32,000 nt of DNA from Nostoc punctiforme PCC 73102 (GTDB taxonomy: Bacteria > Cyanobacteriota > Cyanobacteriia > Cyanobacteriales > Nostocaceae): contig NC_010628.1 in NCBI RefSeq assembly GCF_000020025.1, forward strand, positions 6,660,001 through 6,692,000, written 5' to 3'. The notes beneath the pieces are model-generated. The model saw nothing but the letters and a program-made list of their open reading frames with translations. It was not told where the DNA came from and did no database searches. Made by a program: the position numbers and the translations under genes. Shown here one piece after another: positions 3,837-29,728 of this stretch (its first letter is position 1; every line of letters begins with the position of its first letter).

Positions 3837-5258
3837 TTAAGCATCGTAGTAGAGGTAAAACTCATAGGGATGAGGACGTAGCTGTAACTGCTTGGCTTCG
3901 TTAAGCTTATAGTCAATCCAATTTTCGATAAAGTCTTCCGTGAAAACGCCTGATTCTGTCAAGAAACCGTGATCGTTTTCTAGTGCTTGCAATGCCAGTT
4001 CTAAAGAACTTGGAGTTGAGGGAACCTTTGCAAGCTCTTCTGGAGAGAGTTCATAGATATTCTTATCTAAGGGTTCACCAGGATGGATTTTGTTCTTGAT
4101 ACCATCGATACCAGCACAAAGCATTGCAGCAAATGCCAAGTAGGGGTTAGATGTAGCATCTGGACAACGGAATTCTAAACGCTTGGCTTTGGGGTTCTTA
4201 CCAGATAGAGGAATACGGATAGAAGCAGAACGGTTCCCTTCGGAGTAAGCCAAGTTAACAGGAGCTTCATAACCAGGTACTAGGCGCTTGTATGAGTTGG
4301 TGCTGGGGTTGGTAATTGCTAACAGCGCTGGTGCGTGTTTGAGAAGACCACCGATGTAGTACAATGCCATGTCGCTCAAACCGGCATACTTATCACCTGC
4401 AAACAGAGGTTGGCCGTCTTTCCAGATGGACTGGTGACAGTGCATTCCTGAACCGTTATCGCCAAAAATCGGTTTTGGCATGAAGGTAACGGTTTTGTTG
4501 TGTTTCTTGGCAACGTTCTTGATGACATATTTGTAAGTCATCAACCAGTCAGCCGCTTCGATCAACTTACCAAAACGGAAACCTAGTTCGCACTGACCAC
4601 CAGTAGCAACTTCGTGGTGATGTTTTTCAATGGGTACACCTAATTCTGCCATTGTCAACAGCATCTCTGTACGAATATCTTGGAAAGAATCCGTCGGTGC
4701 GACTGGGAAGTAACCTTCTTTGAAGCGTGGTTTGTAACCCAAGTTGGGTTTTTCGGCTGTACCCTCTTTACCGGAATTCCAAGCACCTTCTTCGGAGTCT
4801 AAGAAGTAGTAGCCTTCGTTAGCGGTTTGGGCAAACCTAGCACTATCAAAGAGAAAGAACTCAGCTTCAGGGCCAAAGAAGACTGTATCACCGATGCCAC
4901 TGGCAACCAGGTAATCTACTGCTTTTTGGGCAATAACCCGTGGGCAACGGTTATAGGGTTCACCCGTCCGGGGGTCTTTAATACTACAAATTATACTTAG
5001 TGTTGGCACTTCCATGAATGGGTCGATCCAAGCAGTGTTGGGGTCGAGTACCATCGTCATGTCCGATTCGTTGATCGCTTTCCAACCCCGGATGCTGGAA
5101 CCGTCAAAAGGTACGCCATCAGTGAATGCAGTTTCATCGATTTGGTTTTGGTACAGTGTGAGGTGCTGCCAAGTCCCTACTGTATCGATGAATTTGAGAT
5201 CAATCAGCTGAATTTTTTCATCTTGAATTTTCTTCAAGAGTTCTTGTGGTGTAGTCAT
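3837..5258 (-). CDS. glnA: glutamine synthetase type I
   Basis: 473-aa ORF with canonical GSI signatures ([30 protein letters not shown]-like region, NPYL). Confidence 0.97.
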
Positions 5259-5615: not shown

Positions 5616-6125
5616 ATGCGCGATGCGGTAACAAGTTTAATTAAGAATTATGACTTAGCTGGTCGGTATTTTGACCGGAATGCGATCGATAGCCTAAAGT
5701 CTTACTTTGACAGTGGTACAGTTCGAGTACAAGCGGCGGCAGCGATAAATTCGAATGCAGCTGCACTTGTCAAGCAGGCGGGTTTGAAGTTATATGAAGA
5801 ACTGCCAGAATTGATTCGCCCCGGTGGAAATTCCTATACAACTCGTCGTTATGCGGCTTGTCTGCGTGATCTAGATTACTACTTGCGCTACGCTACCTAT
5901 GCGCTAGTTGCTGGGAACACAAATGTATTGGATGAACGAGTGCTACAAGGGCTACGGGAAACTTACAATTCTCTAGGCGTGCCTATTGGGCCTACGGTTC
6001 GCGGTATCCAAATTCTCAAGGATCTGATTAAGGAGCAAGTAGCAGCAGCAGGTGTGGTTAATACTGCTTTTGTGGATGAACCATTTGATCACATCACACG
6101 CGAGTTGAGCGAACAGGATATTTAG
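5616..6125 (+). CDS. apcF: allophycocyanin beta-18 subunit (core-membrane-proximal ApcF type)
   Basis: 169-aa product MRDAVTSLIKNYDLAGRYFDRNAIDSLKSYF...YTTRRYAACLRDLDYYLRYATYALVAG...LQGLRETYNSLGVPIGPTVRGIQ is a phycobiliprotein beta-type sequence of ApcF pattern. The ATG at 5616 is preferred over the listed TTG at 5601. Confidence 0.88.
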   Translation: MRDAVTSLIKNYDLAGRYFDRNAIDSLKSYFDSGTVRVQAAAAINSNAAALVKQAGLKLYEELPELIRPGGNSYTTRRYAACLRDLDYYLRYATYALVAGNTNVLDERVLQGLRETYNSLGVPIGPTVRGIQILKDLIKEQVAAAGVVNTAFVDEPFDHITRELSEQDI

Positions 6126-6196
6126 CATCTAGCCTTGGTGACTAAAAATCGCGGAACTATACAAACAAAGTTTGTGTAAGCATACTTTACAGACAT

Positions 6197-6234
6197 CGCA
6201 CTTTGGCTTGATTGGCAAGGTGCGTTTACTTTTC
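6197..6234 (+). terminator. candidate apcF terminator
   Basis: 9-bp stem cgcactttg/caaggtgcg (one G-U pair), 10-nt loop, followed by tttactttt. Confidence 0.45.
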
Positions 6235-6361
6235 TTAAAGCAAAAAACTATTTGTCGTCTCACAAATTAATTGCATTACAACGAAAGTAAGTACTGGAAA
6301 ATTTTTATACCTGCTCGTATGATATTTATTATTGATATAAATAATCTTTGGCAACAGTTAT

Positions 6362-6838
6362 ATGAGTATTAATGATCTAGAATTTCTGCACGGTGCAGCT
6401 TTTCTTCGACTACTGAAAGGAACATCTGATATCTCTATTAGTTATTTATCTTATATTCATTCATCTCTTTATACTATAAAAAGCTTAAATCAAGAATCAG
6501 CGATTCTATTTAAAATATCAAAAAAACCGACTTCTTCATGGTCATTTAGCTTCAGTTCACAGGAAGAAAATGCGCTGACAGCATTTCGTGAAAATTATCC
6601 TGATGTCAAACTTTTTATAGCATTGATTTGTCATCGGGATGGCGTTTGTTGCCTATCAGAAAAACAACTATGGACAATTATTGATCCTAGTGAGGGTTTA
6701 GCCAAGCAGCGTGTTTCTGTAAAAAGAGAAGTAAGAGGGAGTTATTATGTTAAAGGTACGGGGAGAGTTCCCTTAGAGCAGACAGTCCCTCAAAATAATT
6801 GGCCTGACGTAATTTTATCAACATCAAATAATTTATGA
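6362..6838 (+). CDS. hypothetical 158-aa protein, first gene of the Z1 cassette
   Basis: ATG-initiated ORF in an AT-rich, HIP1-free segment. Its stop overlaps the next start in ATGA (6835-6838). I see no recognisable motif. Confidence 0.6.
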   Translation: MSINDLEFLHGAAFLRLLKGTSDISISYLSYIHSSLYTIKSLNQESAILFKISKKPTSSWSFSFSSQEENALTAFRENYPDVKLFIALICHRDGVCCLSEKQLWTIIDPSEGLAKQRVSVKREVRGSYYVKGTGRVPLEQTVPQNNWPDVILSTSNNL

Positions 6839-9009
6839 TACCCACTCAGATTGAAACTAATGGCGGCTGTATTGATAAATTAATTAAGAGATTAGAGAAA
6901 CAAATTGGACAAAAAGAAGCGAATAAACTTAAAGAAACTGCTATTGAAATTGTCCAAAATTGTGTCAAAATTTACTCTGAAAATTTTGGTAATGGTGATG
7001 TAGGTGAAAATAGTACAGGTTTAGTGAGCCAACCTTATAAAGGACAAGACCCTATTCCTAATGGTACAACCGGACTTATTTATGGTCGTGTTCAAAGTGG
7101 TAAAACTAACACAACTATTGCAACTTTAGCACTGGCTCATGAAAATAATTTTTGTTGTTTTATTATTTTAACCTCCGATAATACATGGTTAGGAAAACAA
7201 ACGGCTAATCGTTTCAATAATCAAGTTCAAGGAGGCCCTGTTTTCTTTGATTGGGAAGCATGGAAAAAAGATCCCGATAGTTTTGCAGAGACTAAAATAG
7301 TACCCTATATCAAAGATACAGGTGTTGTATTAGTTTCTACAAAAAATGGTCATCACTTGGATAATTTATTGAAGGTTTTAAAAGCAGCAAAGGTTAGAGG
7401 TGTTCCTACTTTGATTTTTGATGATGAAGCGGATAACGCTAGTTTAAATACGAATGAATCTAAACAAGCTAAAAAAGGAAAAGATGCGATTGATGATAGT
7501 AAAATTTTTGAGACGATAGGTAAAATTCGTCAAGAGGTTGCTAATCATATTTATATTCAAATCACAGCAACTCCCCAAAGTCTTTTGTTACAAAGCCTTC
7601 CTCATTTTTGTAAGCCAAAATTTTGTGCAGCATTACCAGAGCCAGGAGATAGTTATATGGGAGGAGAGTTATTTTTCGCTGATAAAAGTAAATACTGTTG
7701 TATTGTAGATTCTGGAGAAATTAACCAATTAAAGAAACAAAAAGGTGCAATAAATCCGGGTAATAAATGGATAATTCCCGATGGATTAAGACTTGCACTT
7801 TGTTGTTTCTTCTTAGGTTCAATTTACAAAATGTTATCTTCTGGAAAAGAAGATGAGAAATATTCTTTTCTTGCTCATGTCTGTTATAAACAAGATATCC
7901 ATAGTGTATTAGAAAAGGTGATTAGCCAATTTGTAATTAATTTAGATCAAGCAATTCGAGAGAAGAGTTCAGATACAGAAAATAAACAAGCCCGAAAATG
8001 GTTAGAACAAGCTTATGACGAGCTAAAGAAAACTGCTGATAATTTACCTCCAATTACTGAACTGATAGATGAATTAAAAATTCAACTAAGACACGCAATC
8101 CCTAAAATAATTAATGCAAACAACCCCGAAAAAGAGCCTAATTATAATCCAGGTATGAATATCTTAATTGGGGGAAATAGATTAGGTAGAGGTGTGACGA
8201 TTAATGGTCTAATGGTAACTTATTATGGGCGTGATGCGAAACAAAAAGTAATGGATACGGTTCATCAACACGCTCGAATGTATGGTTATCGTCCACAATT
8301 AAAAGATGTGACTCGTCTCTTTCTACCAGAACATATACTAGACGCTTTTCGTTCTATTCACGAAGCAGATGAAGGGATGCGTCAAGCAATTGGAGATGAT
8401 ATTCATAATATTCAACTTCAGCCTGTTTGGATAGGAGGAAATCTCAAAGCAACTCACTCTAATGTTTTAGATCCTTCAGTCATTAATGTATTAGTACCAG
8501 GTTCATTAATTTATCCTCAAAATCCCGCTTATAAAAAAGAGGAAATTGAGCATAATTTTAAAGAAATAGAGGCACTTTTAATAAATTATCAAGATAATAA
8601 TTTATATGTTGAAGTAGATATAGACCTGATAATTAAAATTATCAGTTATACAAAAAGTTATTATATTCCCTCTGAAAAATGGGAAGATAAACGTATAATC
8701 AAAGGTCTAACAGATATGAAATCAAAGGGGATGATAAAGGGGCGTTTAAATGTTCGCAGAGGTGAGAGAAATAAAAATCAAGGATTAGATATGCCCAGAA
8801 AAGAGCCTTTTAAATGGATGTTTGGCTTTGGTTCAGGTAATTGGTACATAGAAGCTCAGAAGAAATATCCTGATGTACCAACTTTAATTATTTGCTATCA
8901 AAAAGGTGAAAAAATTACAGGATGGGATAGTCATCCTATATATCTACCTATGTTAGTTTTACCTAAACAAAAATTTGTTTTAATGTTTAATTATGATGAG
9001 GATGAATAG
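6835..9009 (+). CDS. SF2-like P-loop NTPase fused to a Z1-type domain (putative restriction/defence-associated protein)
   Basis: Walker A GRVQSGKT (7084-7107); DEAD-type Walker B IFDDEAD (7417-7434); ITATPQS (motif III-like). The segment ILIGGNRLGRGVTINGLMVTYYGRDAKQKVMDTVHQHARMYGYRP (about 8161-8295) matches my recollection of the Z1 domain core (GG..L.RG.T.EGL..sYf.R......DTL.Q..RwfGYR). The last ~190 aa have no recognisable motif. Confidence 0.7.
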   Translation: MIPTQIETNGGCIDKLIKRLEKQIGQKEANKLKETAIEIVQNCVKIYSENFGNGDVGENSTGLVSQPYKGQDPIPNGTTGLIYGRVQSGKTNTTIATLALAHENNFCCFIILTSDNTWLGKQTANRFNNQVQGGPVFFDWEAWKKDPDSFAETKIVPYIKDTGVVLVSTKNGHHLDNLLKVLKAAKVRGVPTLIFDDEADNASLNTNESKQAKKGKDAIDDSKIFETIGKIRQEVANHIYIQITATPQSLLLQSLPHFCKPKFCAALPEPGDSYMGGELFFADKSKYCCIVDSGEINQLKKQKGAINPGNKWIIPDGLRLALCCFFLGSIYKMLSSGKEDEKYSFLAHVCYKQDIHSVLEKVISQFVINLDQAIREKSSDTENKQARKWLEQAYDELKKTADNLPPITELIDELKIQLRHAIPKIINANNPEKEPNYNPGMNILIGGNRLGRGVTINGLMVTYYGRDAKQKVMDTVHQHARMYGYRPQLKDVTRLFLPEHILDAFRSIHEADEGMRQAIGDDIHNIQLQPVWIGGNLKATHSNVLDPSVINVLVPGSLIYPQNPAYKKEEIEHNFKEIEALLINYQDNNLYVEVDIDLIIKIISYTKSYYIPSEKWEDKRIIKGLTDMKSKGMIKGRLNVRRGERNKNQGLDMPRKEPFKWMFGFGSGNWYIEAQKKYPDVPTLIICYQKGEKITGWDSHPIYLPMLVLPKQKFVLMFNYDEDE

Positions 9010-9092
9010 GTGATATTTTGAATTAGCGATCGCACCTCTGTAAAAAAGTTTTGCTAGATTAAAGCTGTGTTTTTGGAGCTATCTTTCGACTA

Positions 9093-9512
9093 ATGCCAGC
9101 CAGAGACATCTACCACGCCGCAGTCATTAAAGCACTTATAGCAGATGGTTAGACAATAACCAACGATTCCTTATACCTCGCTTATGGGGATAGATAACTT
9201 TACGTAGATATTGGAGCAGAAAAAGTTACCATTGCTGCTGAGAGGGATAATCAAAAAATAGCTGTTGAAATCAAAAGTTTTCTGAGTCCTTCTCCCGTGA
9301 ATGACCTCCAGGAAGCTGTAGGACAGTATGAAGTTTATCGCAGCGTGCTTAAAGAACTACAACCAAAACGCCAACTTTATTTAGCAGTTCCCAAGCGAGT
9401 CTATGAAGGTATATTTTCCGAACGCTTTGGTCAGCTAATTCTTAATAGTATAGGAATAAACCTAATTGTCTTTGACGAGCAACTAGAGAGGATTATCAGA
9501 TGGATAAGCTAG
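9093..9512 (+). pseudogene. xisH: xisH (XisH family, PD-(D/E)xK-like) with two in-frame stop codons
   Basis: The frame from ATG 9093 reads MPARDIYHAAVIKALIADG*TITNDSLYLAYGDR*LYVDIGAEK..AVEIKSFLSPSP..., a full-length XisH pattern. It is interrupted by TAG at 9150-9152 (where W is expected) and TAA at 9195-9197. Only the distal 71 codons appear as an ORF. Confidence 0.8.
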
Positions 9513-9835
9513 CTCGGTATCGTGAAATTATTCGTCAGTTGATATTTGACTATGCTGGTCACAAACCTGCTAATGGTCAAATAGAGACTGAAGCTGTCAT
9601 TGACTCGGAGCGAGACCACTACGAAGTACTACATATTGGTTGGGATGGAGTACGCCGCGTACATGGTTCAGTGGTACATATAGATATTATTAATGATAAA
9701 GTGTGGATTCAATATGATGGTACTTCTCAGCCAGTGGCAGAAGCATTATTAGAAGCGGGTATTTTGCGCGAAGATATTGTTTTGGGTTTTCATCCTGCTG
9801 AACTACGGCAATACACGGATTTTGCTGTATTTTAA
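9500..9835 (+). CDS. xisI: XisI family protein
   Basis: 111-aa product MDKLARYREIIRQLIFDYAG...DHYEVLHIGWDG.RRVHGSVVHIDIINDKVWIQYDGT... is the typical XisI pattern. Its start overlaps the xisH end, as in other xisHI pairs. Confidence 0.85.
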   Translation: MDKLARYREIIRQLIFDYAGHKPANGQIETEAVIDSERDHYEVLHIGWDGVRRVHGSVVHIDIINDKVWIQYDGTSQPVAEALLEAGILREDIVLGFHPAELRQYTDFAVF

Positions 9836-10043
9836 TTATCTTTAATTGTGTAATTCTCAAAGAAGAAAGAAGCAATAAACTTGATCCTAGCGATCGCTTT
9901 AAATGGCGATCGCAGATGAAAGAATCGACTTTAGAAAGGCTAAGAATTTTAAACAAGCTCTAGCTGATTTGAAAGTGCTGTTAGCGGTAGCAGGGCGTTT
10001 AGCCCGTGCTGAGTAATAATCATTGAGTGGCGATCGCTCTAAA

Positions 10044-10137
10044 AGGAACAAGTGACAGCCGCAGGCATGATTAATTCTAGCTTTGCGGATGAACTGTTTA
10101 ATCACATCACACGCGAGTTGAACCAACAGATATTGAG
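10044..10137 (+). pseudogene. displaced, diverged copy of the apcF 3' end (direct repeat of 6031-6125)
   Basis: Hand alignment to apcF 6031-6125 gives roughly 80% identity over about 95 nt, with one 1-nt indel that removes the stop. There is a 21-nt identical core atcacatcacacgcgagttga (6088-6108 and 10101-10121). It translates KEQVTAAGMINSSFADELFNHITRELNQQI versus apcF KEQVAAAGVVNTAFVDEPFDHITRELSEQDI. Confidence 0.8.
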
Positions 10138-10272
10138 TAATTCAACAAGCAGTATAAAATATAGCGATCGCACTTTTGTCTTTGTTGGGAAAGAGCGATC
10201 GCTTTTTTAATTCAAGTTTTTGCCGCTAAAGGACAATATCACGCCTTTCTAATCTAGATCAAAAAAGCTATG

Positions 10273-11455
10273 TTAGCGTTGTCCACTTTGTATTTTGTCG
10301 AAGATTGCGCCGTCATCGAAAAACTTCTTCTGAACAGTATCCCAGCCTCCCAAACTCTGAACGTTGTAAAGCTTAGAAATCTTGGGAAATTTATTCTGTA
10401 CTTCCTTTATTACAGTAGAGTTAACAGGTCGAAAACCAACTTTGGCAAATTCACGTTGAGCTTCTGGTGTAAAAAGAAAATTTACAAAACCTTCCGAAAC
10501 CTGGCGAGTACCGTGCTTGTCAACATTCTTATCCACAACTGCTACTGGGCCATCCTATAGAAATGTTCACCTGGGGAACCACATAAGAAGGTGAAGTTTT
10601 TCCTTGTTGTGCTGCTAAGATAATCTCATTTTCATAGTTAAGCAAAACATCCCCTTGACCTTTCTTGTAAAAGACATCGCTTGATTCTCGCGCATCTTTA
10701 GGTAACACAGGGACATTGCGAAAGACTTGGGTAACATAGTTAAGAGCTTGAGCTTCACTTCCATCATTTTTGGTGATTCCACCCCACAAAGCCAGGAAGT
10801 TCCACCGCGCACCTCCTGAAGTTTTAGGGTTTGCTGTAATCACCTTGACCCCTGGTTTAGTTAAATCACTCCAACTCTGGATCTTTTTCGGATTACCTTC
10901 ACGAGTTTCTAGAGCAACTACTGAGTGGGTAACAATTGAGTTATTTGATGCTTCCTTTTCCCAGCCTGGTTGAATCAGTCCAGCTTTTTCAATTTTTTTG
11001 GTATCCAATGCCAGTGCCAAGGCTACAACATCTGCTTCTAATCCGTCAATTACTGCACGGGTTTGAGAGCCAGAACCACCATAGCTTTCCCGAATCACTA
11101 CATCTTGACCTTTTTCGCGTTTCCATTTCGCTACAAATTTAGGAATGATTTTCTGGTAAGCGGCTTTAGTGACTGCGTAGGAAACCAGAGTTATTTCAAC
11201 TGTTTTACCGCCTTGACTAATCAATTCAGGCTTCTGGTTAGTTTTATCAGCAGTCCCCGCAGCATAAGCAGGAATAAGGACACTTAAGCTCAAGCCAGTT
11301 GCGAATAAGAATGCAGAGGTTTTAGTTGAGGTAGGCTTTAATTGCAGAAGTAGCTGTCTGGCTGGGCGGAAAACTTGTAACTTTTTGGCTTGCAGATGTG
11401 TCATAGAAGCTGGGTGTTGTGTAGTTGCTTGATTAAACAACGGTAATTCGGTCAA
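10273..11455 (-). pseudogene. sulfate/thiosulfate ABC transporter substrate-binding protein paralog with a single-base frameshift
   Basis: ORFs 10529..11455 and 10273..10536 together are colinear with the intact paralog at 11856..13046. The frame breaks at ...VNISI|GWPSSSCG*, where ISIDGPVAVVDKNVDKHG is expected. One extra base in the CC doublet at about 10554-10555 explains it. The likely start is ATG 11404 rather than the listed TTG 11455. Confidence 0.8.
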
Positions 11456-11634
11456 CTTACCGCTGTTAGTCCTGAGAAAGAGATTATTAGATTAATTCTC
11501 AGAATTCAACTATTTTTTATACTAAAAATTTTGATTTTTTCCTGGGTAAACTCTTAGTGCAGATATGTAAAATATCTGACTACTATTTCAAATGAGAGAG
11601 AAAAATAACTAATGTCAAATTCTCAATTCCCTAG

Positions 11635-11855: not shown

Positions 11856-13046
11856 ATGAGTTTGTGGCAACGCCCACTGAAAAGATTACAAGCGATGTCT
11901 TACGACAAGCTGCTTCTCTCCGAGACGCTACGCGAACGCATCTACGCTGAACATAGAACATATCGGTTCAGACTAAATTCGCTCAAAAGCTTTGTATCGC
12001 TCTTTTTAGTAGGGACTGTTTTGAGTGTGGCGCTTGCCGCCTGCTCTGGTGGAACAGCGAGTAATCCTTCCACTGAAACCCCTAATGCTACTCCTGTGGC
12101 TGCAACCAAAGATAATGTTGAACTAACTCTGGTTTCCTTTGCTGTCACCAAAGCGGCTCACGAAGCAATTATTCCTAAATTTGTAGAACAGTGGAAGAAA
12201 GATCATAACCAAACTGTTGTCTTCAAGCAAAGCTATGGCGGATCTGGTTCTCAAACTCGCGCCGTTATCGATGGTTTGGAAGCAGATGTCGTTCACTTGG
12301 CATTAGCTGGAGACACTTCAAAGATTGAGAAAGCTGGATTAATTCAGCCTGGTTGGGAGAAAGAAGTTCCTAATAATGGTATTGTCTCCAAATCGGTAGC
12401 AGCATTAGTCACCCGTCCAGGAAATCCTAAAGGCATCAAGACTTGGGAAGATTTATCTAAAGCCGGTATCAAACTAATTACTGCTGACCCTAAAACATCA
12501 GGAGTTGCTCGCTGGAATTTCTTAGCTCTTTGGAATTCAGTGATTAAAACTGGTGGAGATGATGCTAAAGCGACTGAATTTGTTAGCAAAGTGTACAAGA
12601 ACGTGCCTTTGTTGACTAAAGATGCTCGTGAAGCTACTGATGCATTTTTCAAACAGGGTCAAGGTGATGCCCTGATTAACTATGAAAATGAGATTATCTT
12701 GGCAGAACAAAAGGGTGAAAAGTTGACTGCGATCATCCCTGATGTCAATATATCTATCGATAATCCCATCGCAGTGGTAGATAAAAATGTTGATAAGCAC
12801 GGTACACGCGAAGTTGCCGAAGGTTTTGTCAAATATCTATATACTCCAGAGGCTCAACAGGAGTTTGCAAAATTAGGATTCCGGCCAGTGGATGATACCT
12901 TGAGCTTAAGTAAAGAAGTTGCAGACAAATTTCCCAAGGTGAAGACTTTAGGTACAGTTGCAGACTTCGGCGGTTGGGATGGAATCAATAAGAAGTTCTT
13001 CGCAGAGGGAGCGATTTTTGACCAGATTCAAGCCAAGAAAAAGTAA
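11856..13046 (+). CDS. sbpA: sulfate ABC transporter substrate-binding lipoprotein
   Basis: 396-aa ORF with GGAGG 7 nt upstream of ATG 11856 and a lipobox (VALAAC). The mature part (SYGGSGSQTRAVIDGLEADVV..., NYENEIILA) is the Sbp/CysP family pattern. It is followed by cysT and cysW. Confidence 0.9.
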   Translation: MSLWQRPLKRLQAMSYDKLLLSETLRERIYAEHRTYRFRLNSLKSFVSLFLVGTVLSVALAACSGGTASNPSTETPNATPVAATKDNVELTLVSFAVTKAAHEAIIPKFVEQWKKDHNQTVVFKQSYGGSGSQTRAVIDGLEADVVHLALAGDTSKIEKAGLIQPGWEKEVPNNGIVSKSVAALVTRPGNPKGIKTWEDLSKAGIKLITADPKTSGVARWNFLALWNSVIKTGGDDAKATEFVSKVYKNVPLLTKDAREATDAFFKQGQGDALINYENEIILAEQKGEKLTAIIPDVNISIDNPIAVVDKNVDKHGTREVAEGFVKYLYTPEAQQEFAKLGFRPVDDTLSLSKEVADKFPKVKTLGTVADFGGWDGINKKFFAEGAIFDQIQAKKK

Positions 13047-15075: not shown

Positions 15076-15188
15076 CTAAATTATGTCTAGTAACACACCT
15101 ACCAATAAACGGATTCGACTCAGAATTCCTAAAGACTATCACCAGGAACCTGTGATTTCTCGCCTAGTAGTCTGCCAAGCTAACTTTG

Positions 15189-15919
15189 CTATGTTAAATT
15201 TGGATATAAACGCTCCATTTTTCGGCGAGCATCTTTGGTTTGAAAACCCCAATAAACACTAGCTTTTTGCTGATTACGTTTTTTCTCCCAAGCGGCAATC
15301 TCAGAAGTTAATGTTTCTGCATTAGGAATACGCCGTTCTAAACATTGGCGAGATAAAACAGATAATTCGATTTCTACCTGATTCAGCCCTTCGGGTTCGC
15401 CAGTTGCTTCAAGTCGGGGAACCCGCCCAACGCACTGGCTCACCAAGAAGCGTGTTTAGGAGTATAGTGAAACTCTAACTTTTGAATAATTCGACGTGCT
15501 TCTTCTGGTGGAAAAACTTCATATAATGCATTGGGTGTATGAATATTCAAGTTATCAACTACTAAACGAATAACATCGGCATCTCGGTAGGAAACATCTA
15601 CTAAATTTTTCATTTGTTTAGCAAAATCGGCTTTAGTTCGACGTTCTGTAACTTCGATATGCCGCCATCCAGCCAAGGGTTGAAAACATGCGAATAAATT
15701 TACTGTCCCGTTACGTTTATACTCAAAATCATAACGTTCAGGTTGCTCTGGCTGTGGTGGCAAAGGAAGTCTTACTTCTTCTACTAATTGGTATGGACGT
15801 TCATCAAAGCAGACTACAGGGCGTTTAGGATCATAAGGCTCATTGTATAAATCCAGCACATCTTCCATTCGGAAAACATATTCTGCGTTAACTTCAGGAA
15901 TACACCATTGTTCTTTCAA
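15189..15919 (-). pseudogene. IS630 transposase DDE part (orfB), broken by a 56-nt insertion
   Basis: ORFs 15440..15919 and 15189..15446 are the two halves of one DDE domain. ...[10 protein letters not shown] is separated from LNQVEIELSVLSRQCL... by 15387-15442 (56 nt, not a multiple of 3). Confidence 0.75.
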
Positions 15920-16356
15920 CCAAGGCTTAATTTCATTTTTTTTAAAGTTTGACGTACTGTTTCATCTGAGATTGAATCTATGATACCAACGTTCACTAAA
16001 TGATCTGCTAATAATTGCATTGTCCAACGCACTCTTCCTTCTGGCGGATTAGAACAAGCTGTTGCAATCAAAAATGCTTCTTGCTTTTCATCTAATTTTT
16101 TATGTTTTGGTGGATGAACTTCATCCTTTAAAGCAAAATCTAACCCTCCAATGACAAATTTTTCTCGTATTCGTTGCACTGTTGCAACATGCGCTCTAAC
16201 TATGCTAGCGATCGCTTGATCCGTTTCTCCTTCGGAAGCCATCAAAAGAATGTTTGCACGGCTTATGGTTCTTGCCTTATGCTTACCTTTCTTAATTATC
16301 GATTGCAGTTGGGAAACTTCATCTTCATTCAAGTCAACAATGTACTTTTTTGCCAT
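15916..16356 (-). CDS. IS630 transposase, N-terminal HTH part (orfA)
   Basis: 146 aa with paired HTH/winged-helix segments. It ends just after an A8 run (15936-15943 on +) where the -1 frame continues [16 protein letters not shown], the usual IS630 junction. Confidence 0.85.
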
Positions 16357-16768
16357 GTTACACCCCGTTTTTGGCTATTTTACCAATTAGAGGTTTTACT
16401 TAGCAAAGTTACCTTGGTAGACTACTAGTGTCTGACTACAATCTGACTGTGAATATCACAGCAGCAATTTTGGGAGCCAATGCTGTCGGTGATGGTTGGT
16501 TTGACCTTGAATTACAAGGAACAGATGCACAAATTCAGAGCGGACTAACCTATCTTCAGGACTTGGAGTTACAAGTCTGGGATGACACTCAAAGAAGTGA
16601 TTGGTAAGGCTTATAGAACAATACAGTTCAGGCTTAAACTCTTTGTTAAGGTTAATTTTTTTAACGAACTGCATTCGCGCAGCGTCTCGTTAGAGAAGGA
16701 CACAAAGGAAGAGAAAGAAGAGAAGGAAGAGAAGGAAGAAATGCTTAACCCAAGCGTATTGAGTTATA

Positions 16769-28630: not shown

Positions 28631-29428
28631 TCAAACCTGATGAACTAATTTCCAACTTACCATCATCAAGATGGCATAAATAATAAACCGTAGTGGGCGT
28701 TGCGGAGCTATTTGACAGACTTTAGCACCTAATAATACTCCTGGCACAGAGCCTAACCATATAGGCAGTACCAAACTCCAATCAACTGTTCCCAGGCTGA
28801 GATGGCCGAGAGCTGTAAATAGCAGTAAAATTGCTGCGTGCGAAATATCTGTACCCACTAACTTCCGTGCATCAAGGCGGAAAAACGCAATCAGCACTAG
28901 AGCAAACATTGAACCTGATGAGACGCTAGTTAGACCAACTAAACAGCCTAAAATGGCCCCCAGAGTGATTGTTAGGAAGCGGCCAAAGTTAGTTTCTAAG
29001 TCTAACTTTGGTAGTTCGGGTAAATTGAATTTGGGTAAAAAAGTCAATAACAACAATTGCACTAGTGCTAAAGCTGTGACTAGCAAAATCATCATACCAA
29101 GCAAACGGAGCAAGATGCTATCCAGGTTATACTCACCTGTACGTTTAAGAAAGTGCAAAATTCCCACCCCAAATAGTGAGCCTGGAACACTTCCGAATGC
29201 CAGCCATTTGACAACTTCTGTATCCAGAGTTTTCTGTTCCCAATGCTTGACGCTACCAACAATCTTCATCAATGTGGCAGCTACAACATCAGAACTCACT
29301 GCGATGGAAGGCGGAACTTGAAAAACAAAAATCAACATTGGAGTAATGAGAGAGGCTCCGCCAATCCCCGTCAAACCAACTATGATTCCAACAAAGAAGC
29401 TTAAGAATGGTAGTAATAAATAGTGCAT
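28631..29428 (-). CDS. TauE/SafE-family (sulfite exporter-like) membrane protein
   Basis: GLTGIGGASLITPMLIF N-terminal motif and its internal repeat (GLTSVSSGSMFALVLIAF), with 7-8 TM segments. ATG 29428 (MHYLLL) is preferred to the listed TTG 29479. Confidence 0.8.
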   Translation of the reverse strand: MHYLLLPFLSFFVGIIVGLTGIGGASLITPMLIFVFQVPPSIAVSSDVVAATLMKIVGSVKHWEQKTLDTEVVKWLAFGSVPGSLFGVGILHFLKRTGEYNLDSILLRLLGMMILLVTALALVQLLLLTFLPKFNLPELPKLDLETNFGRFLTITLGAILGCLVGLTSVSSGSMFALVLIAFFRLDARKLVGTDISHAAILLLFTALGHLSLGTVDWSLVLPIWLGSVPGVLLGAKVCQIAPQRPLRFIIYAILMMVSWKLVHQV

Positions 29429-29728
29429 ACTCTTTGGGGGTTTGAGAAAGTCAGCTAGAACTTTACTACTAGAAAGCAATAACTCAGCCGAATTACAGCT
29501 CAGTGGTAGATAGAGCTAGTCATGGCAAGTTATTGTGTTTCTCAAAGGATGAGTGACACAAAAAAGGTTATCCAGCTAAAAGTTAGGGCAGAGGATTACT
29601 GGACAACTTAAAACCTGTCTGGAAGTTTTTGGAAGCATGACAACTGACATTTACCTGAAACAGACTTTGATAACTGCTTATGGGTCAGTTGTTTGACTAA
29701 AATCAACTTCTTACTGGTTTTTTTGCGG

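What the first reader, a model, noticed from the sequence alone, without database searches (positions are those of the whole stretch)
6031..10137. A roughly 4.0-kb islet bounded by two diverged copies of the apcF 3' end with a 21-bp identical core (att-like structure)
The last ~95 nt of apcF (6031-6125) recur at 10044-10137. Identity is roughly 80% by hand alignment, with a perfectly identical 21-mer atcacatcacacgcgagttga at 6088-6108 and 10101-10121, a spacing of 4013 bp. The second copy still translates as an ApcF C-terminus but has lost the stop through a 1-nt deletion. It is followed by a HIP1-centred palindrome plus T-run (about 10190-10208) that could be the original apcF terminator.

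An identical core flanked by diverged homology is the signature left when an element integrates into the 3' end of a gene and supplies a surrogate 3' end (attL/attR). Everything between the copies (the Z1 cassette, xisH pseudogene, xisI) is therefore cargo. No integrase lies between the repeats, so the islet would now be immobile, or mobilised in trans.
Basis: partly seen in the sequence, partly recalled or inferred. Interest (0 to 1): 0.7.

Follow-up and report, generated by a model that had tools for sequence, protein, structure and literature searches.

The report
Relic apcF end flanking transplanted islet
The repeat is real: a decaying leftover of a former apcF gene end and terminator marks where a 4-kb block of genes was spliced in behind apcF, but the evidence points to ordinary recombination between Nostoc strains, not a self-integrating mobile element.

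Summary
Positions 6030-6125 recur at 10043-10137 with about 80% identity, far above chance, and both copies are followed by homologous terminator hairpins. Copy 2 is a truncated relic of a genuine apcF 3' end. In sister strains it is still in frame with its TAG stop; in this window it has decayed further.

Three related genomes have "empty" sites, where one apcF runs straight into the copy-2 terminator, the spacer and the sbpA gene.

The att-site reading is not supported:
- The 21-mer "core" is simply the most conserved coding stretch; 51 of 90 natural alleles carry it exactly.
- No integrase lies in the window or in the flanks of sister loci.
- The "cargo" (orf158-Z1, xisH, xisI, in this order) sits behind apcF in many Nostocales genomes that have no second tail.
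- The Z1 pair has its own boundaries, about 6241 and 9026.
- xisHI is resident at this site in most Nostoc.
- The left end of copy 2 is a homology-free joint next to a HIP1 palindrome.

The best reading is a recombination scar: one homologous exchange plus one illegitimate joint, arising once and now segregating in one Nostoc species complex. Interest is low to moderate.

The parts
5616..6125 (+). Intact apcF-like allophycocyanin beta-family gene (169 aa), divergent from glnA (3837-5258, minus strand).
   Evidence: Pfam Phycobilisome, E = 3.7e-58. NCBIfam apcB equivalog model, 262 bits against a cut-off of 228. The name apcF rests on the 169-aa length and the glnA adjacency, from my own knowledge.
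6030..6125 (+). Copy 1: the functional last 96 nt of apcF.
   Evidence: It is identical or nearly identical to the apcF tails of the empty-site and other sister strains.
6126..6240 (+). 'post1' allele of the apcF 3' flank. It has a 70-nt post-stop segment, then a terminator hairpin at 6197-6224 and a T-rich run.
   Evidence: Fold energy -16.3 kcal/mol, z = -2.7. The hairpin is homologous to the post2 hairpin. This allele is linked to orf158/Z1 or their remnants in about 25 loci.
6362..6838 (+). orf158, a small protein of unknown family whose reading frame overlaps the Z1 gene.
   Evidence: No hit in Pfam, PADLOC or NCBIfam. It is always found together with Z1 in relatives.
6835..9009 (+). Z1-domain, helicase-like defence-type protein (724 aa). 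It has low GC (29-36%).
   Evidence: Pfam Z1, E = 1.2e-54. PADLOC Helicase_II, E = 1.1e-89, and MzaC, E = 2.8e-20. GC profile. Homologues at 70% identity occur on plasmids of Calothrix brevissima NIES-22 and Nostoc sp. C057.
9026..9033 (.). HIP1 palindrome (GCGATCGC) at the right boundary of the Z1-cassette indel, relative to genomes that have apcF-terminator-xisH.
   Evidence: Alignment A2. HIP1 positions.
9093..9512 (+). xisH pseudogene with two in-frame stops. It is intact (139 aa) in sister strains.
   Evidence: Pfam XisH.
9500..9835 (+). xisI (111 aa, intact).
   Evidence: Pfam XisI, E = 9.3e-43.
9836..10042 (+). Post-xisI spacer. It begins with the generic Nostoc post-xisI sequence and contains a small HIP1-flanked repeat ('pre2', about 9890-10040). 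It ends at GGCGATCGCTC.
   Evidence: Copies of pre2 occur in L025 and L076.
10042..10043 (.). Illegitimate joint. Donor-type sequence (…GGCGATCGCTC TA) abuts apcF codon about 138, with at most 2-3 nt of microhomology.
   Evidence: Alignments A1 and A3. In other genomes the same HIP1 is followed by CCGAATCG… or CATAGATT….
10043..10137 (+). Copy 2: a truncated, decaying relic of an apcF 3' end. In this window it has a frameshift and has lost its stop.
   Evidence: In L081 and L087 the relic is in frame and keeps its TAG. In L112 it is split by an IS630 element. It shares 9 of 15 diagnostic bases with the functional alleles of L062 and L070.
10138..10250 (+). 'post2' apcF 3' flank: a 'type-a' post-stop segment, a HIP1-stem terminator hairpin at 10163-10203 with a T-run, and the first part of the apcF-xisH spacer seen in other Nostoc.
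   Evidence: Fold energy -19.4 kcal/mol, z = -3.8. It is 94-96% identical to the sequence directly after apcF in L023, L026, L030, L041, L043 and others.
10250..10251 (.). Older rearrangement joint between the apcF downstream spacer and the 3' flank of sbpA. It is shared by the double-tail and the empty-site genomes.
   Evidence: Where the sulfate cluster lies elsewhere (L083, L113), homology to the window starts at 10251.
10273..11455 (-). sbpA-like sulfate/thiosulfate-binding protein gene. It is frameshifted in this window and intact (379 aa) in sister strains.

Best explanation
Copy 2 with its hairpin is a recombination scar. It is the stranded, non-functional remainder of an earlier apcF 3' end and terminator.

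Proposed history:
- A Nostoc lineage had apcF-terminator-spacer joined directly to the sbpA/sulfate-transporter cluster. This 'empty' haplotype is still present in L085, L089 and L114.
- That lineage received a block of about 4 kb that is the usual apcF-downstream neighbourhood of other Nostoc strains. The block comprises an alternative apcF end and terminator allele ('post1'), the orf158-Z1 defence-type pair, xisH-xisI and the post-xisI spacer.
- The block was spliced in by general recombination. One exchange was homologous, within or at the end of apcF. The other was an illegitimate joint at 10042/10043, beside a HIP1 palindrome.

This could have happened in two ways:
- As homology-facilitated illegitimate recombination of a linear fragment.
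- As a single crossover of a circularised fragment that carried an apcF tail, the Campbell type, which characteristically leaves a partial duplication.

The incoming block supplies the working apcF end and terminator. The old end has decayed neutrally and now at most serves as a terminator between xisI and the convergent sbpA.

Shown: the repeat; the relic nature of copy 2; the empty sites; the single origin; the homology-free joint; the block at the same locus elsewhere without a second tail.

Inferred: the direction (islet into an empty site, rather than relic plus sbpA placed behind the islet) and the enzymology (RecA-type plus illegitimate joining).
For: - The repeat is real and extends into homologous terminators.
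- In sister strains copy 2 reads KEQVTAAG(V/L)INSSFADEPFNHITRELSQQDI*, with its TAG stop. Different strains carry different private lesions: a frameshift and stop loss here, other substitutions in L081, and an IS630 insertion in L112. This is neutral decay of a once-real gene end.
- The distinctive bases of copy 2 occur in functional apcF alleles of other Nostoc. L062 and L070 share 9 of 15, and the GTGACAGCC motif is in L035, L071 and L074.
- Three empty sites carry the same spacer|sbpA junction.
- Of 89 apcF loci with at least 3 kb downstream, only the window's own strain (L090, L092) and L087 have two tails in the blastn census. A profile search over all held loci finds a second tail in L090, L092, L087 and L112 only, and FACHB-395 carries copy 2 on a contig (L081) that lacks apcF.
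- Eight loci with a full Z1 cassette and about 10 with remnants have one tail.
- xisHI follows apcF without Z1 in more than 30 loci.
- The left end of copy 2 abuts sequence that elsewhere continues differently after the same HIP1.
- No integrase is present. There is no match in phage or viral collections.
- Within the species complex the flanks are 96-99% identical and mosaic. No apcF SNP is fixed between haplotype classes, which indicates frequent homologous exchange at this locus.
- Single crossover of a circularised fragment is documented to yield 109-950 bp duplications of the homologous locus (PMC3240628).
Against: - No sampled empty site is the exact predicted precursor. All three carry the 'type-b' post-stop segment, whereas copy 2 has 'type-a'. 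At least one unsampled allele or a later exchange must be assumed.
- No sampled donor combines post1-Z1-xisHI with the pre2-containing spacer.
- The direction of the event, and the choice between HFIR and a Campbell-type crossover, cannot be resolved from these data.
- Natural competence or another DNA-entry route in these strains was not tested.
- An integrase acting in trans cannot be excluded by sequence alone.
Confidence: 0.6

Rival explanations
1. A discrete integrative islet with an attP that mimics the apcF 3' end inserted by site-specific recombination at the 21-bp core. This would give attL (copy 1) and attR (copy 2). The integrase has since been lost or acts in trans.
For: - Direct repeats flank an insertion that is absent from the empty sites.
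- The surrogate 3' end keeps apcF intact.
- The divergent left half of copy 2 is 'foreign' to the species complex, where all sampled apcF genes carry the copy-1 type. It lies contiguous with the islet, as a P arm would.
- Differences between the copies lie almost entirely left of the core: 14 of 15 in the L081 version.
Against: - There is no integrase in the 32 kb window, and none is called in the about 10 kb on each side of apcF in the sister locus L087.
- The core is ordinary conserved coding sequence: 51 of 90 alleles carry it exactly, and the chance probability of such a run is 0.1-0.27.
- The left/right asymmetry mirrors where natural alleles vary.
- The same genes in the same order occupy the same locus in many genomes without a second tail. 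xisHI is resident there even without Z1.
- The structure has a single origin and is never seen with other cargo.
- The empty sites do not equal the predicted attB.
- Nothing similar is found in phage or viral collections.
Confidence: 0.1
2. The mirror-image event. The Z1-xisHI haplotype was the recipient. A fragment from an 'empty-type' strain, beginning inside the apcF tail and carrying terminator-spacer-sbpA, was spliced in downstream of xisI. It was anchored by homology in the sulfate cluster on the right and joined illegitimately on the left.
For: - The relic and sbpA always occur together as one block.
- Relatives such as L002, L001, L003 and L086 have xisI followed by the sulfate cluster without sbpA. 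A right-hand anchor therefore existed at this locus.
- The left joint is homology-free.
Against: - Those relatives carry a different, derived sequence immediately after xisI (CCCACATTT…). The window keeps the generic Nostoc post-xisI sequence, so they are not the recipient type.
- This model needs copy 2's foreign-looking allele to have been the donor strain's working apcF, and no such empty-site strain has been sampled.
Confidence: 0.15
3. A local tandem or segmental duplication of the apcF end within this genome, followed by divergence.
For: The two units are direct repeats of tail plus terminator, 4 kb apart.
Against: - The left 58 nt differ by 24%, while orthologous flanks in the species complex differ by 1-4%.
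- The differences are alleles seen in other species' functional genes.
- The two terminators and post-stop segments are two widespread alternative haplotypes, not private copies.
Confidence: 0.03

Closest known systems
Homology-facilitated illegitimate recombination, and single-crossover (Campbell-type) integration of circularised fragments, during transformation or conjugation (PMC3240628 and the work cited there)
   Same: - Foreign DNA enters next to a homologous anchor.
- One junction lacks homology.
- Single crossover of a circularised fragment leaves a partial direct duplication of the homologous locus (109-950 bp in E. coli). This matches the tail-plus-terminator duplication of about 95-210 nt seen here.
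   Different: This is a natural, ancient event inferred from comparative genomics in Nostoc. The DNA-entry route and the enzymes are unknown. The inserted DNA is the orthologous neighbourhood of another strain, not heterologous marker DNA.
Genomic islands and prophages integrated into the 3' end of a gene or tRNA, with attL/attR and a surrogate 3' end
   Same: - Direct repeats of a gene's 3' end flank inserted DNA.
- The gene stays intact through a replacement 3' end.
- Empty sites exist in relatives.
   Different: - There is no integrase.
- The repeats are diverged alleles, not an identity block.
- The contents are a conserved chromosomal neighbourhood found at the same locus without repeats.
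- The structure has a single origin.
- There is no evidence of excision.
Heterocyst developmental excision elements of Nostocales (nifD, fdxN and hupL elements; XisA, XisC, XisF with XisH/XisI) (PMC4874684)
   Same: It occurs in Nostocales, xisH and xisI homologues lie inside the repeat-bounded segment, and short direct repeats bracket it.
   Different: - The host gene is not interrupted; apcF is complete.
- No xisA, xisC or xisF recombinase is present in the segment.
- xisH is a pseudogene here.
- xisHI pairs sit behind apcF in most Nostoc irrespective of any repeat.
- apcF is not mentioned anywhere in that survey's main text.
Defence-island hotspots with cassette turnover between conserved core genes
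   Same: A low-GC Z1/helicase-like pair and xisHI are variably present, deleted, IS-disrupted or allelically diverged at one fixed chromosomal position downstream of apcF, across Nostoc, Hassallia and Aulosira.
   Different: No defence function has been tested. The Z1 protein does not reach the MzaC equivalog cut-off (89.7 against 1500 bits).

Membership tests
Site-specific integrative island (attL/attR at a gene 3' end) | Direct repeats of the target gene's end flank the inserted DNA. | tested here: met
   6030-6125 against 10043-10137, 80% identity, score 98 against 18.5 +/- 2.3 for shuffles.
Site-specific integrative island (attL/attR at a gene 3' end) | A tyrosine or serine recombinase is encoded in or next to the island. 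| tested here: not met
   Pfam scans of all ORFs of at least 100 aa in the 32 kb window find only DDE transposases. None is called in the about 10 kb on each side of apcF in the sister locus L087.
Site-specific integrative island (attL/attR at a gene 3' end) | An identity core that marks the crossover and stands out from background conservation. | tested here: not met
   The 21-mer is exact in 51 of 90 natural apcF alleles. A run of at least 21 is expected in 10-27% of random placements.
Site-specific integrative island (attL/attR at a gene 3' end) | The empty site equals copy-1-left + core + copy-2-right. | tested here: inconclusive
   Empty sites exist (L085, L089, L114). They carry a different post-stop segment (type-b) and lack copy 2's GCC variant.
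Site-specific integrative island (attL/attR at a gene 3' end) | The cargo is absent from the locus wherever the repeats are absent, or the structure recurs with other cargo. | tested here: not met
   orf158-Z1 and/or xisHI follow apcF in more than 50 loci that have a single tail. The double tail occurs only in one species complex, with identical junctions.
Heterocyst excision element (XisA/XisC/XisF type) | The element interrupts the reading frame of a functional gene, which is restored by excision. | tested here: not met
   apcF copy 1 is a complete 169-aa ORF, identical in protein to the apcF of the empty-site strains.
Heterocyst excision element (XisA/XisC/XisF type) | The cognate recombinase gene lies inside the element. 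| tested here: not met
   Only orf158, Z1, a xisH pseudogene and xisI lie between the repeats.
Recombination scar (HFIR or Campbell-type single crossover) | Partial duplication (or deletion) of the homologous locus at the insertion. | tested here: met
   The tail plus terminator is duplicated. For comparison see PMC3240628.
Recombination scar (HFIR or Campbell-type single crossover) | One junction has no homology or only microhomology. | tested here: met
   At 10042/10043, …GGCGATCGCTCTA|AAAGGAAC…. The same HIP1 continues as CCGAATCG… or CATAGATT… in other genomes.
Recombination scar (HFIR or Campbell-type single crossover) | The inserted DNA is orthologous chromosomal DNA of related strains, not a mobile element. 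| tested here: met
   The block is 86-97% identical and colinear behind apcF in L002, L020, L034, L051, L063, L078, L060 and L077.
Recombination scar (HFIR or Campbell-type single crossover) | A DNA uptake route and RecA-dependent integration in these strains. | not testable with these tools
   This needs transformation or conjugation experiments.
MZA anti-phage system (MzaC) | The protein reaches the NCBIfam MzaC equivalog cut-off. | tested here: not met
   89.7 bits against a cut-off of 1500. Only the Z1 domain is shared.

The most novel reading that the evidence does not exclude
The islet may be a member of an unrecognised class of integrase-less defence cassettes. Such cassettes would carry a copy of their target gene's 3' end and terminator as a portable homology arm. 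A circular copy could then enter any related chromosome by RecA-mediated single crossover while keeping the target gene intact. HIP1 palindromes would serve as preferred breakage and joining points that shuffle the modules.
Probability: 0.08. Interest if true: 0.6.

Novelty: new member of a known kind. Interest (0 to 1): 0.3.

Why it matters
This is a clean natural example of a small defence-type gene block moving between bacterial chromosomes without any mobile-element machinery. The stranded gene end works as a dated fossil of the event.

It is also a warning for annotation. A gene-end duplication with an 'identical core' looks like attL/attR, yet it can arise from general recombination at the most conserved part of a coding sequence.

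The locus downstream of apcF emerges as a hotspot of cassette turnover in Nostocales. That could be useful for population-genomic studies of defence-gene flow. It does not change current understanding of integration mechanisms.

Tried and rejected
- Inversion hypothesis. I considered that sbpA was brought next to the relic by an inversion whose other end lies at the TauE gene (28631-29479), because sbpA neighbours TauE in L083 and L113. Rejected: the window's TauE region has no DNA similarity to those loci.
- Junction search. I scanned metagenome contigs for the spacer|sbpA junction to find more empty or double-tail sites. There were 0 hits.
- 21-mer in metagenome contigs. This gave 13 loci, all with a single copy.
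- 21-mer in viral contigs. There were 0 hits.
- Whole islet against phage records. There was no match. Against plasmids, only Z1 at 70% identity and short xisH matches were found, with no apcF tail.
- L002-type relatives (xisI-126 nt-sulfate cluster) as the ancestral recipient. This is unlikely, because their post-xisI sequence is derived while the window keeps the generic one.
- Foreign block left of the tail. I looked for apcF SNPs fixed between post1- and post2-haplotype strains, which would discriminate HFIR from a Campbell-type crossover. None was found. apcF is fully mosaic within the complex, so the test was uninformative.
- Empty sites as excision products of the double-tail type. Rejected: they have the type-b post-stop segment and lack copy 2's private G-to-C change.
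Full report
**Observation**

A local alignment of 5950-6250 against 9950-10300 recovers 6030-6125 against 10043-10137. The score is 98, compared with 18.5 +/- 2.3 (maximum 29) for 300 shuffles. The repeat finder gives the same pair at 80% identity with a spacing of 4013 nt. The exact 21-mer lies at 6088-6108 and 10101-10121. Copy 2 has a 1-nt deletion, and its TAG has become GAG.

The repeated unit is therefore 'apcF tail plus terminator'.

**Local genes**

The gene order across the region is:
- glnA on the minus strand (3837-5258).
- orf158, of no known family (6362-6838).
- A Z1-domain, helicase-like protein (6835-9009).
- xisH with two in-frame stops (9093-9512).
- xisI (9500-9835).
- Copy 2 (10043-10137).
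- A frameshifted sulfate-binding protein gene, sbpA, on the minus strand (10273-11455).
- sbp2-cysT-cysW.

No tyrosine or serine recombinase is present anywhere in the 32 kb; only DDE transposases occur.

**Comparative evidence**

I fetched 80 Nostocales apcF loci, one per species. Further loci came from exact-protein look-ups of ApcF and of intact SbpA homologues. The window is 100% identical to a Logan contig from SRR16479520 (L090).

*1. The terminator after copy 2 is a genuine apcF terminator.* The sequence right of copy 2 ('post2') directly follows the apcF stop codon at 94-96% identity in many Nostoc genomes. The sequence after copy 1 ('post1') is an alternative allele of the same terminator region. 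It is linked to orf158/Z1 or their remnants.

*2. Copy 2 was once a real gene end.*
- In FACHB-395 (L081) and CP040281.1 (L087) the second copy is 98% identical to the window's. It is still in frame and ends in TAG (…DEPFNHITRELSQQDI*).
- In Nostoc sp. TCL240-02 (L112) an IS630 element has landed in it.
- Each strain carries different private changes. Copy 2 is therefore a neutrally decaying relic of a real apcF end.
- Nine of the 15 bases that distinguish it from copy 1 occur in the functional apcF of L062 and L070. Its leftmost motif occurs in L035, L071 and L074.

*3. Empty sites exist.* L085, L089 and L114 (N. punctiforme UO1) have one apcF with the same protein. It is followed by the post2 hairpin, the same spacer and the identical spacer|sbpA junction, with sbpA intact. 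They have no Z1 and no xisHI. Their flanks are 96-99% identical to the window.

*4. The intervening genes are not the cargo of a discrete element.*
- The same block, post1-orf158-Z1(-xisH-xisI), lies immediately behind apcF in L002, L020, L034, L051, L063, L078, and also in Hassallia (L060) and Aulosira (L077). Remnants occur in about ten more loci. All of these have a single tail.
- A blastn census finds a second tail only in L090, L092 and L087 among 89 loci with at least 3 kb downstream. A profile search with nhmmer over all held loci adds L112 and nothing else. FACHB-395 carries copy 2 on a contig (L081) that lacks apcF.
- xisHI follows apcF without Z1 in more than 30 loci.
- Relative to those genomes, the Z1 pair is an indel between the apcF terminator (about 6241) and a HIP1 site just upstream of xisH (9026). 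It is not bounded by the tails.

*5. The double-tail arrangement arose once.* All double-tail genomes share the same two junctions, at 10042/10043 and about 10250/10251. They belong to one recombining species complex. In that complex the double-tail, empty and several deleted haplotypes segregate among strains that are at least 98% identical at glnA.

*6. The left end of copy 2 is a homology-free joint.* The sequence from xisI to 10040 is the generic Nostoc post-xisI spacer plus a small HIP1-flanked repeat. It ends in GGCGATCGCTC. In other genomes this continues as CCGAATCG… or CATAGATT…. Here it abuts apcF codon about 138.

*7. The 'core' is not diagnostic.*
- The 21-mer encodes DHITREL and is exact in 51 of 90 natural alleles.
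- A run of that length is expected by chance in 10-27% of cases.
- In the less-decayed L081 version, 14 of the 15 differences lie left of the core. That is also where natural alleles vary.

*8. Nothing similar is mobile.* No similar sequence occurs in phage or viral collections. Plasmids carry only Z1 homologues at 70% identity. Thirteen metagenome loci that contain the 21-mer each have one copy.

**Interpretation**

The structure is best read as a recombination scar. A lineage whose apcF terminator region had already been joined to the sulfate cluster (the empty haplotype) acquired the Z1-xisHI neighbourhood of another Nostoc haplotype. This took one homologous exchange at or within apcF and one illegitimate joint at 10042/10043. 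The old gene end was left stranded.

Two sub-mechanisms fit:
- HFIR of a linear fragment. Copy 2 would then be the recipient's old allele.
- Single crossover of a circularised fragment carrying an apcF tail. Copy 2's left half would then be donor DNA, with the crossover in the conserved 38 nt that include the 21-mer.

Three points mildly favour the single-crossover variant:
- Duplications are its typical product (PMC3240628).
- The left half of copy 2 is foreign to the species complex and is contiguous with the islet.
- That allele is linked to post1/Z1 remnants in L062 and L070.

However, apcF is fully mosaic in this population, and no SNP separates the haplotype classes. Neither the predicted recipient nor the predicted donor is sampled exactly. 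All three empty sites carry the type-b post-stop segment, whereas copy 2 has type-a. A mirror-image event, in which relic plus sbpA was spliced in behind xisI, is also possible.

The integrase-mediated att model remains possible only with a recombinase acting in trans. I rate it at about 0.1.

**Function today**

Copy 1 and post1 are the working end and terminator of apcF. Copy 2 is non-coding debris. Its hairpin probably terminates xisI and the convergent sbpA. The two diverged repeats could in principle mediate deletion, but the sampled empty sites are not such products.

**Novelty and interest**

The phenomenon belongs to a known kind: partial gene-end duplication left by recombinational acquisition, and cassette turnover at a defence hotspot. 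It is a well-documented natural instance and a useful caution against reading att sites from gene-end repeats. It is not a new mechanism.

Noticed in passing
window 9026, 9890, 9906, 10030, 10164, 10195: Six of the window's 23 HIP1 palindromes (GCGATCGC) fall within 1.2 kb. They sit at or next to haplotype-module boundaries: the right edge of the Z1 cassette, the point where lineages diverge after xisI, the illegitimate joint, and the terminator stems. This could be a recombination or breakage hotspot, or it could only reflect the intergenic and terminator bias of HIP1.
   Followed up: partly
window 6876-8076 against L087: The Z1 gene is only 82-89% identical between the window and L087, while orf158, xisHI and the flanks are 95-100% identical. 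The defence-type gene appears to have undergone allelic replacement or diversification within a conserved frame.
   Followed up: no
window 9093-9512, 10273-11455, 10043-10137: In this strain only, xisH has two stop codons, sbpA is frameshifted, and the relic has additional lesions. All three are intact or less decayed in sister strains. This suggests strain-specific gene erosion.
   Followed up: partly
window 9890-10040; L025 17406-17534; L076 10637-10700: A repeat of about 140 nt ('pre2') is bounded by GCGATCGCT(C/T)TAAA(T/A)GG direct repeats. It occurs in the post-xisI spacer of a few Nostoc lineages, with shorter matches elsewhere. It may be a miniature mobile or dispersed repeat.
   Followed up: partly
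window 9839-11625 against L002 14224-14349 (also L001, L003, L086, L091, L008): Relatives replace this 1787-nt stretch (spacer, relic, terminator, sbpA and part of the intergenic region) with an unrelated 126-nt filler (73 nt in L008) directly after the xisI stop. The origin of the filler is unknown.
   Followed up: partly
window 11856-13046: The sbp2 gene of the window is only about 85% identical to those of the other strains of the complex, which are 96-98% identical to each other. It is 92.6% identical to L089 and 90.7% to L008. This is a locally imported allele, so the locus is strongly mosaic.
   Followed up: no
window 15175-16424: An IS630-family element, with split HTH and DDE_3 ORFs at 15440-16356, is inserted here relative to L089, L086 and L085. 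Related IS630 copies interrupt Z1 in L087, orf158 and the relic in L112, and the islet remnant in L086.
   Followed up: partly
plasmids AP018212.1 (Calothrix brevissima NIES-22) and NZ_CP040285.1 (Nostoc sp. C057): Homologues of the orf158-end/Z1 region at about 70% DNA identity are plasmid-borne. The Z1 pair therefore circulates on replicons other than this chromosomal site.
   Followed up: no
The NCBIfam scan listed no separate apcF model among its matches. The apcF name rests on the 169-aa length and the glnA adjacency.
   Followed up: no
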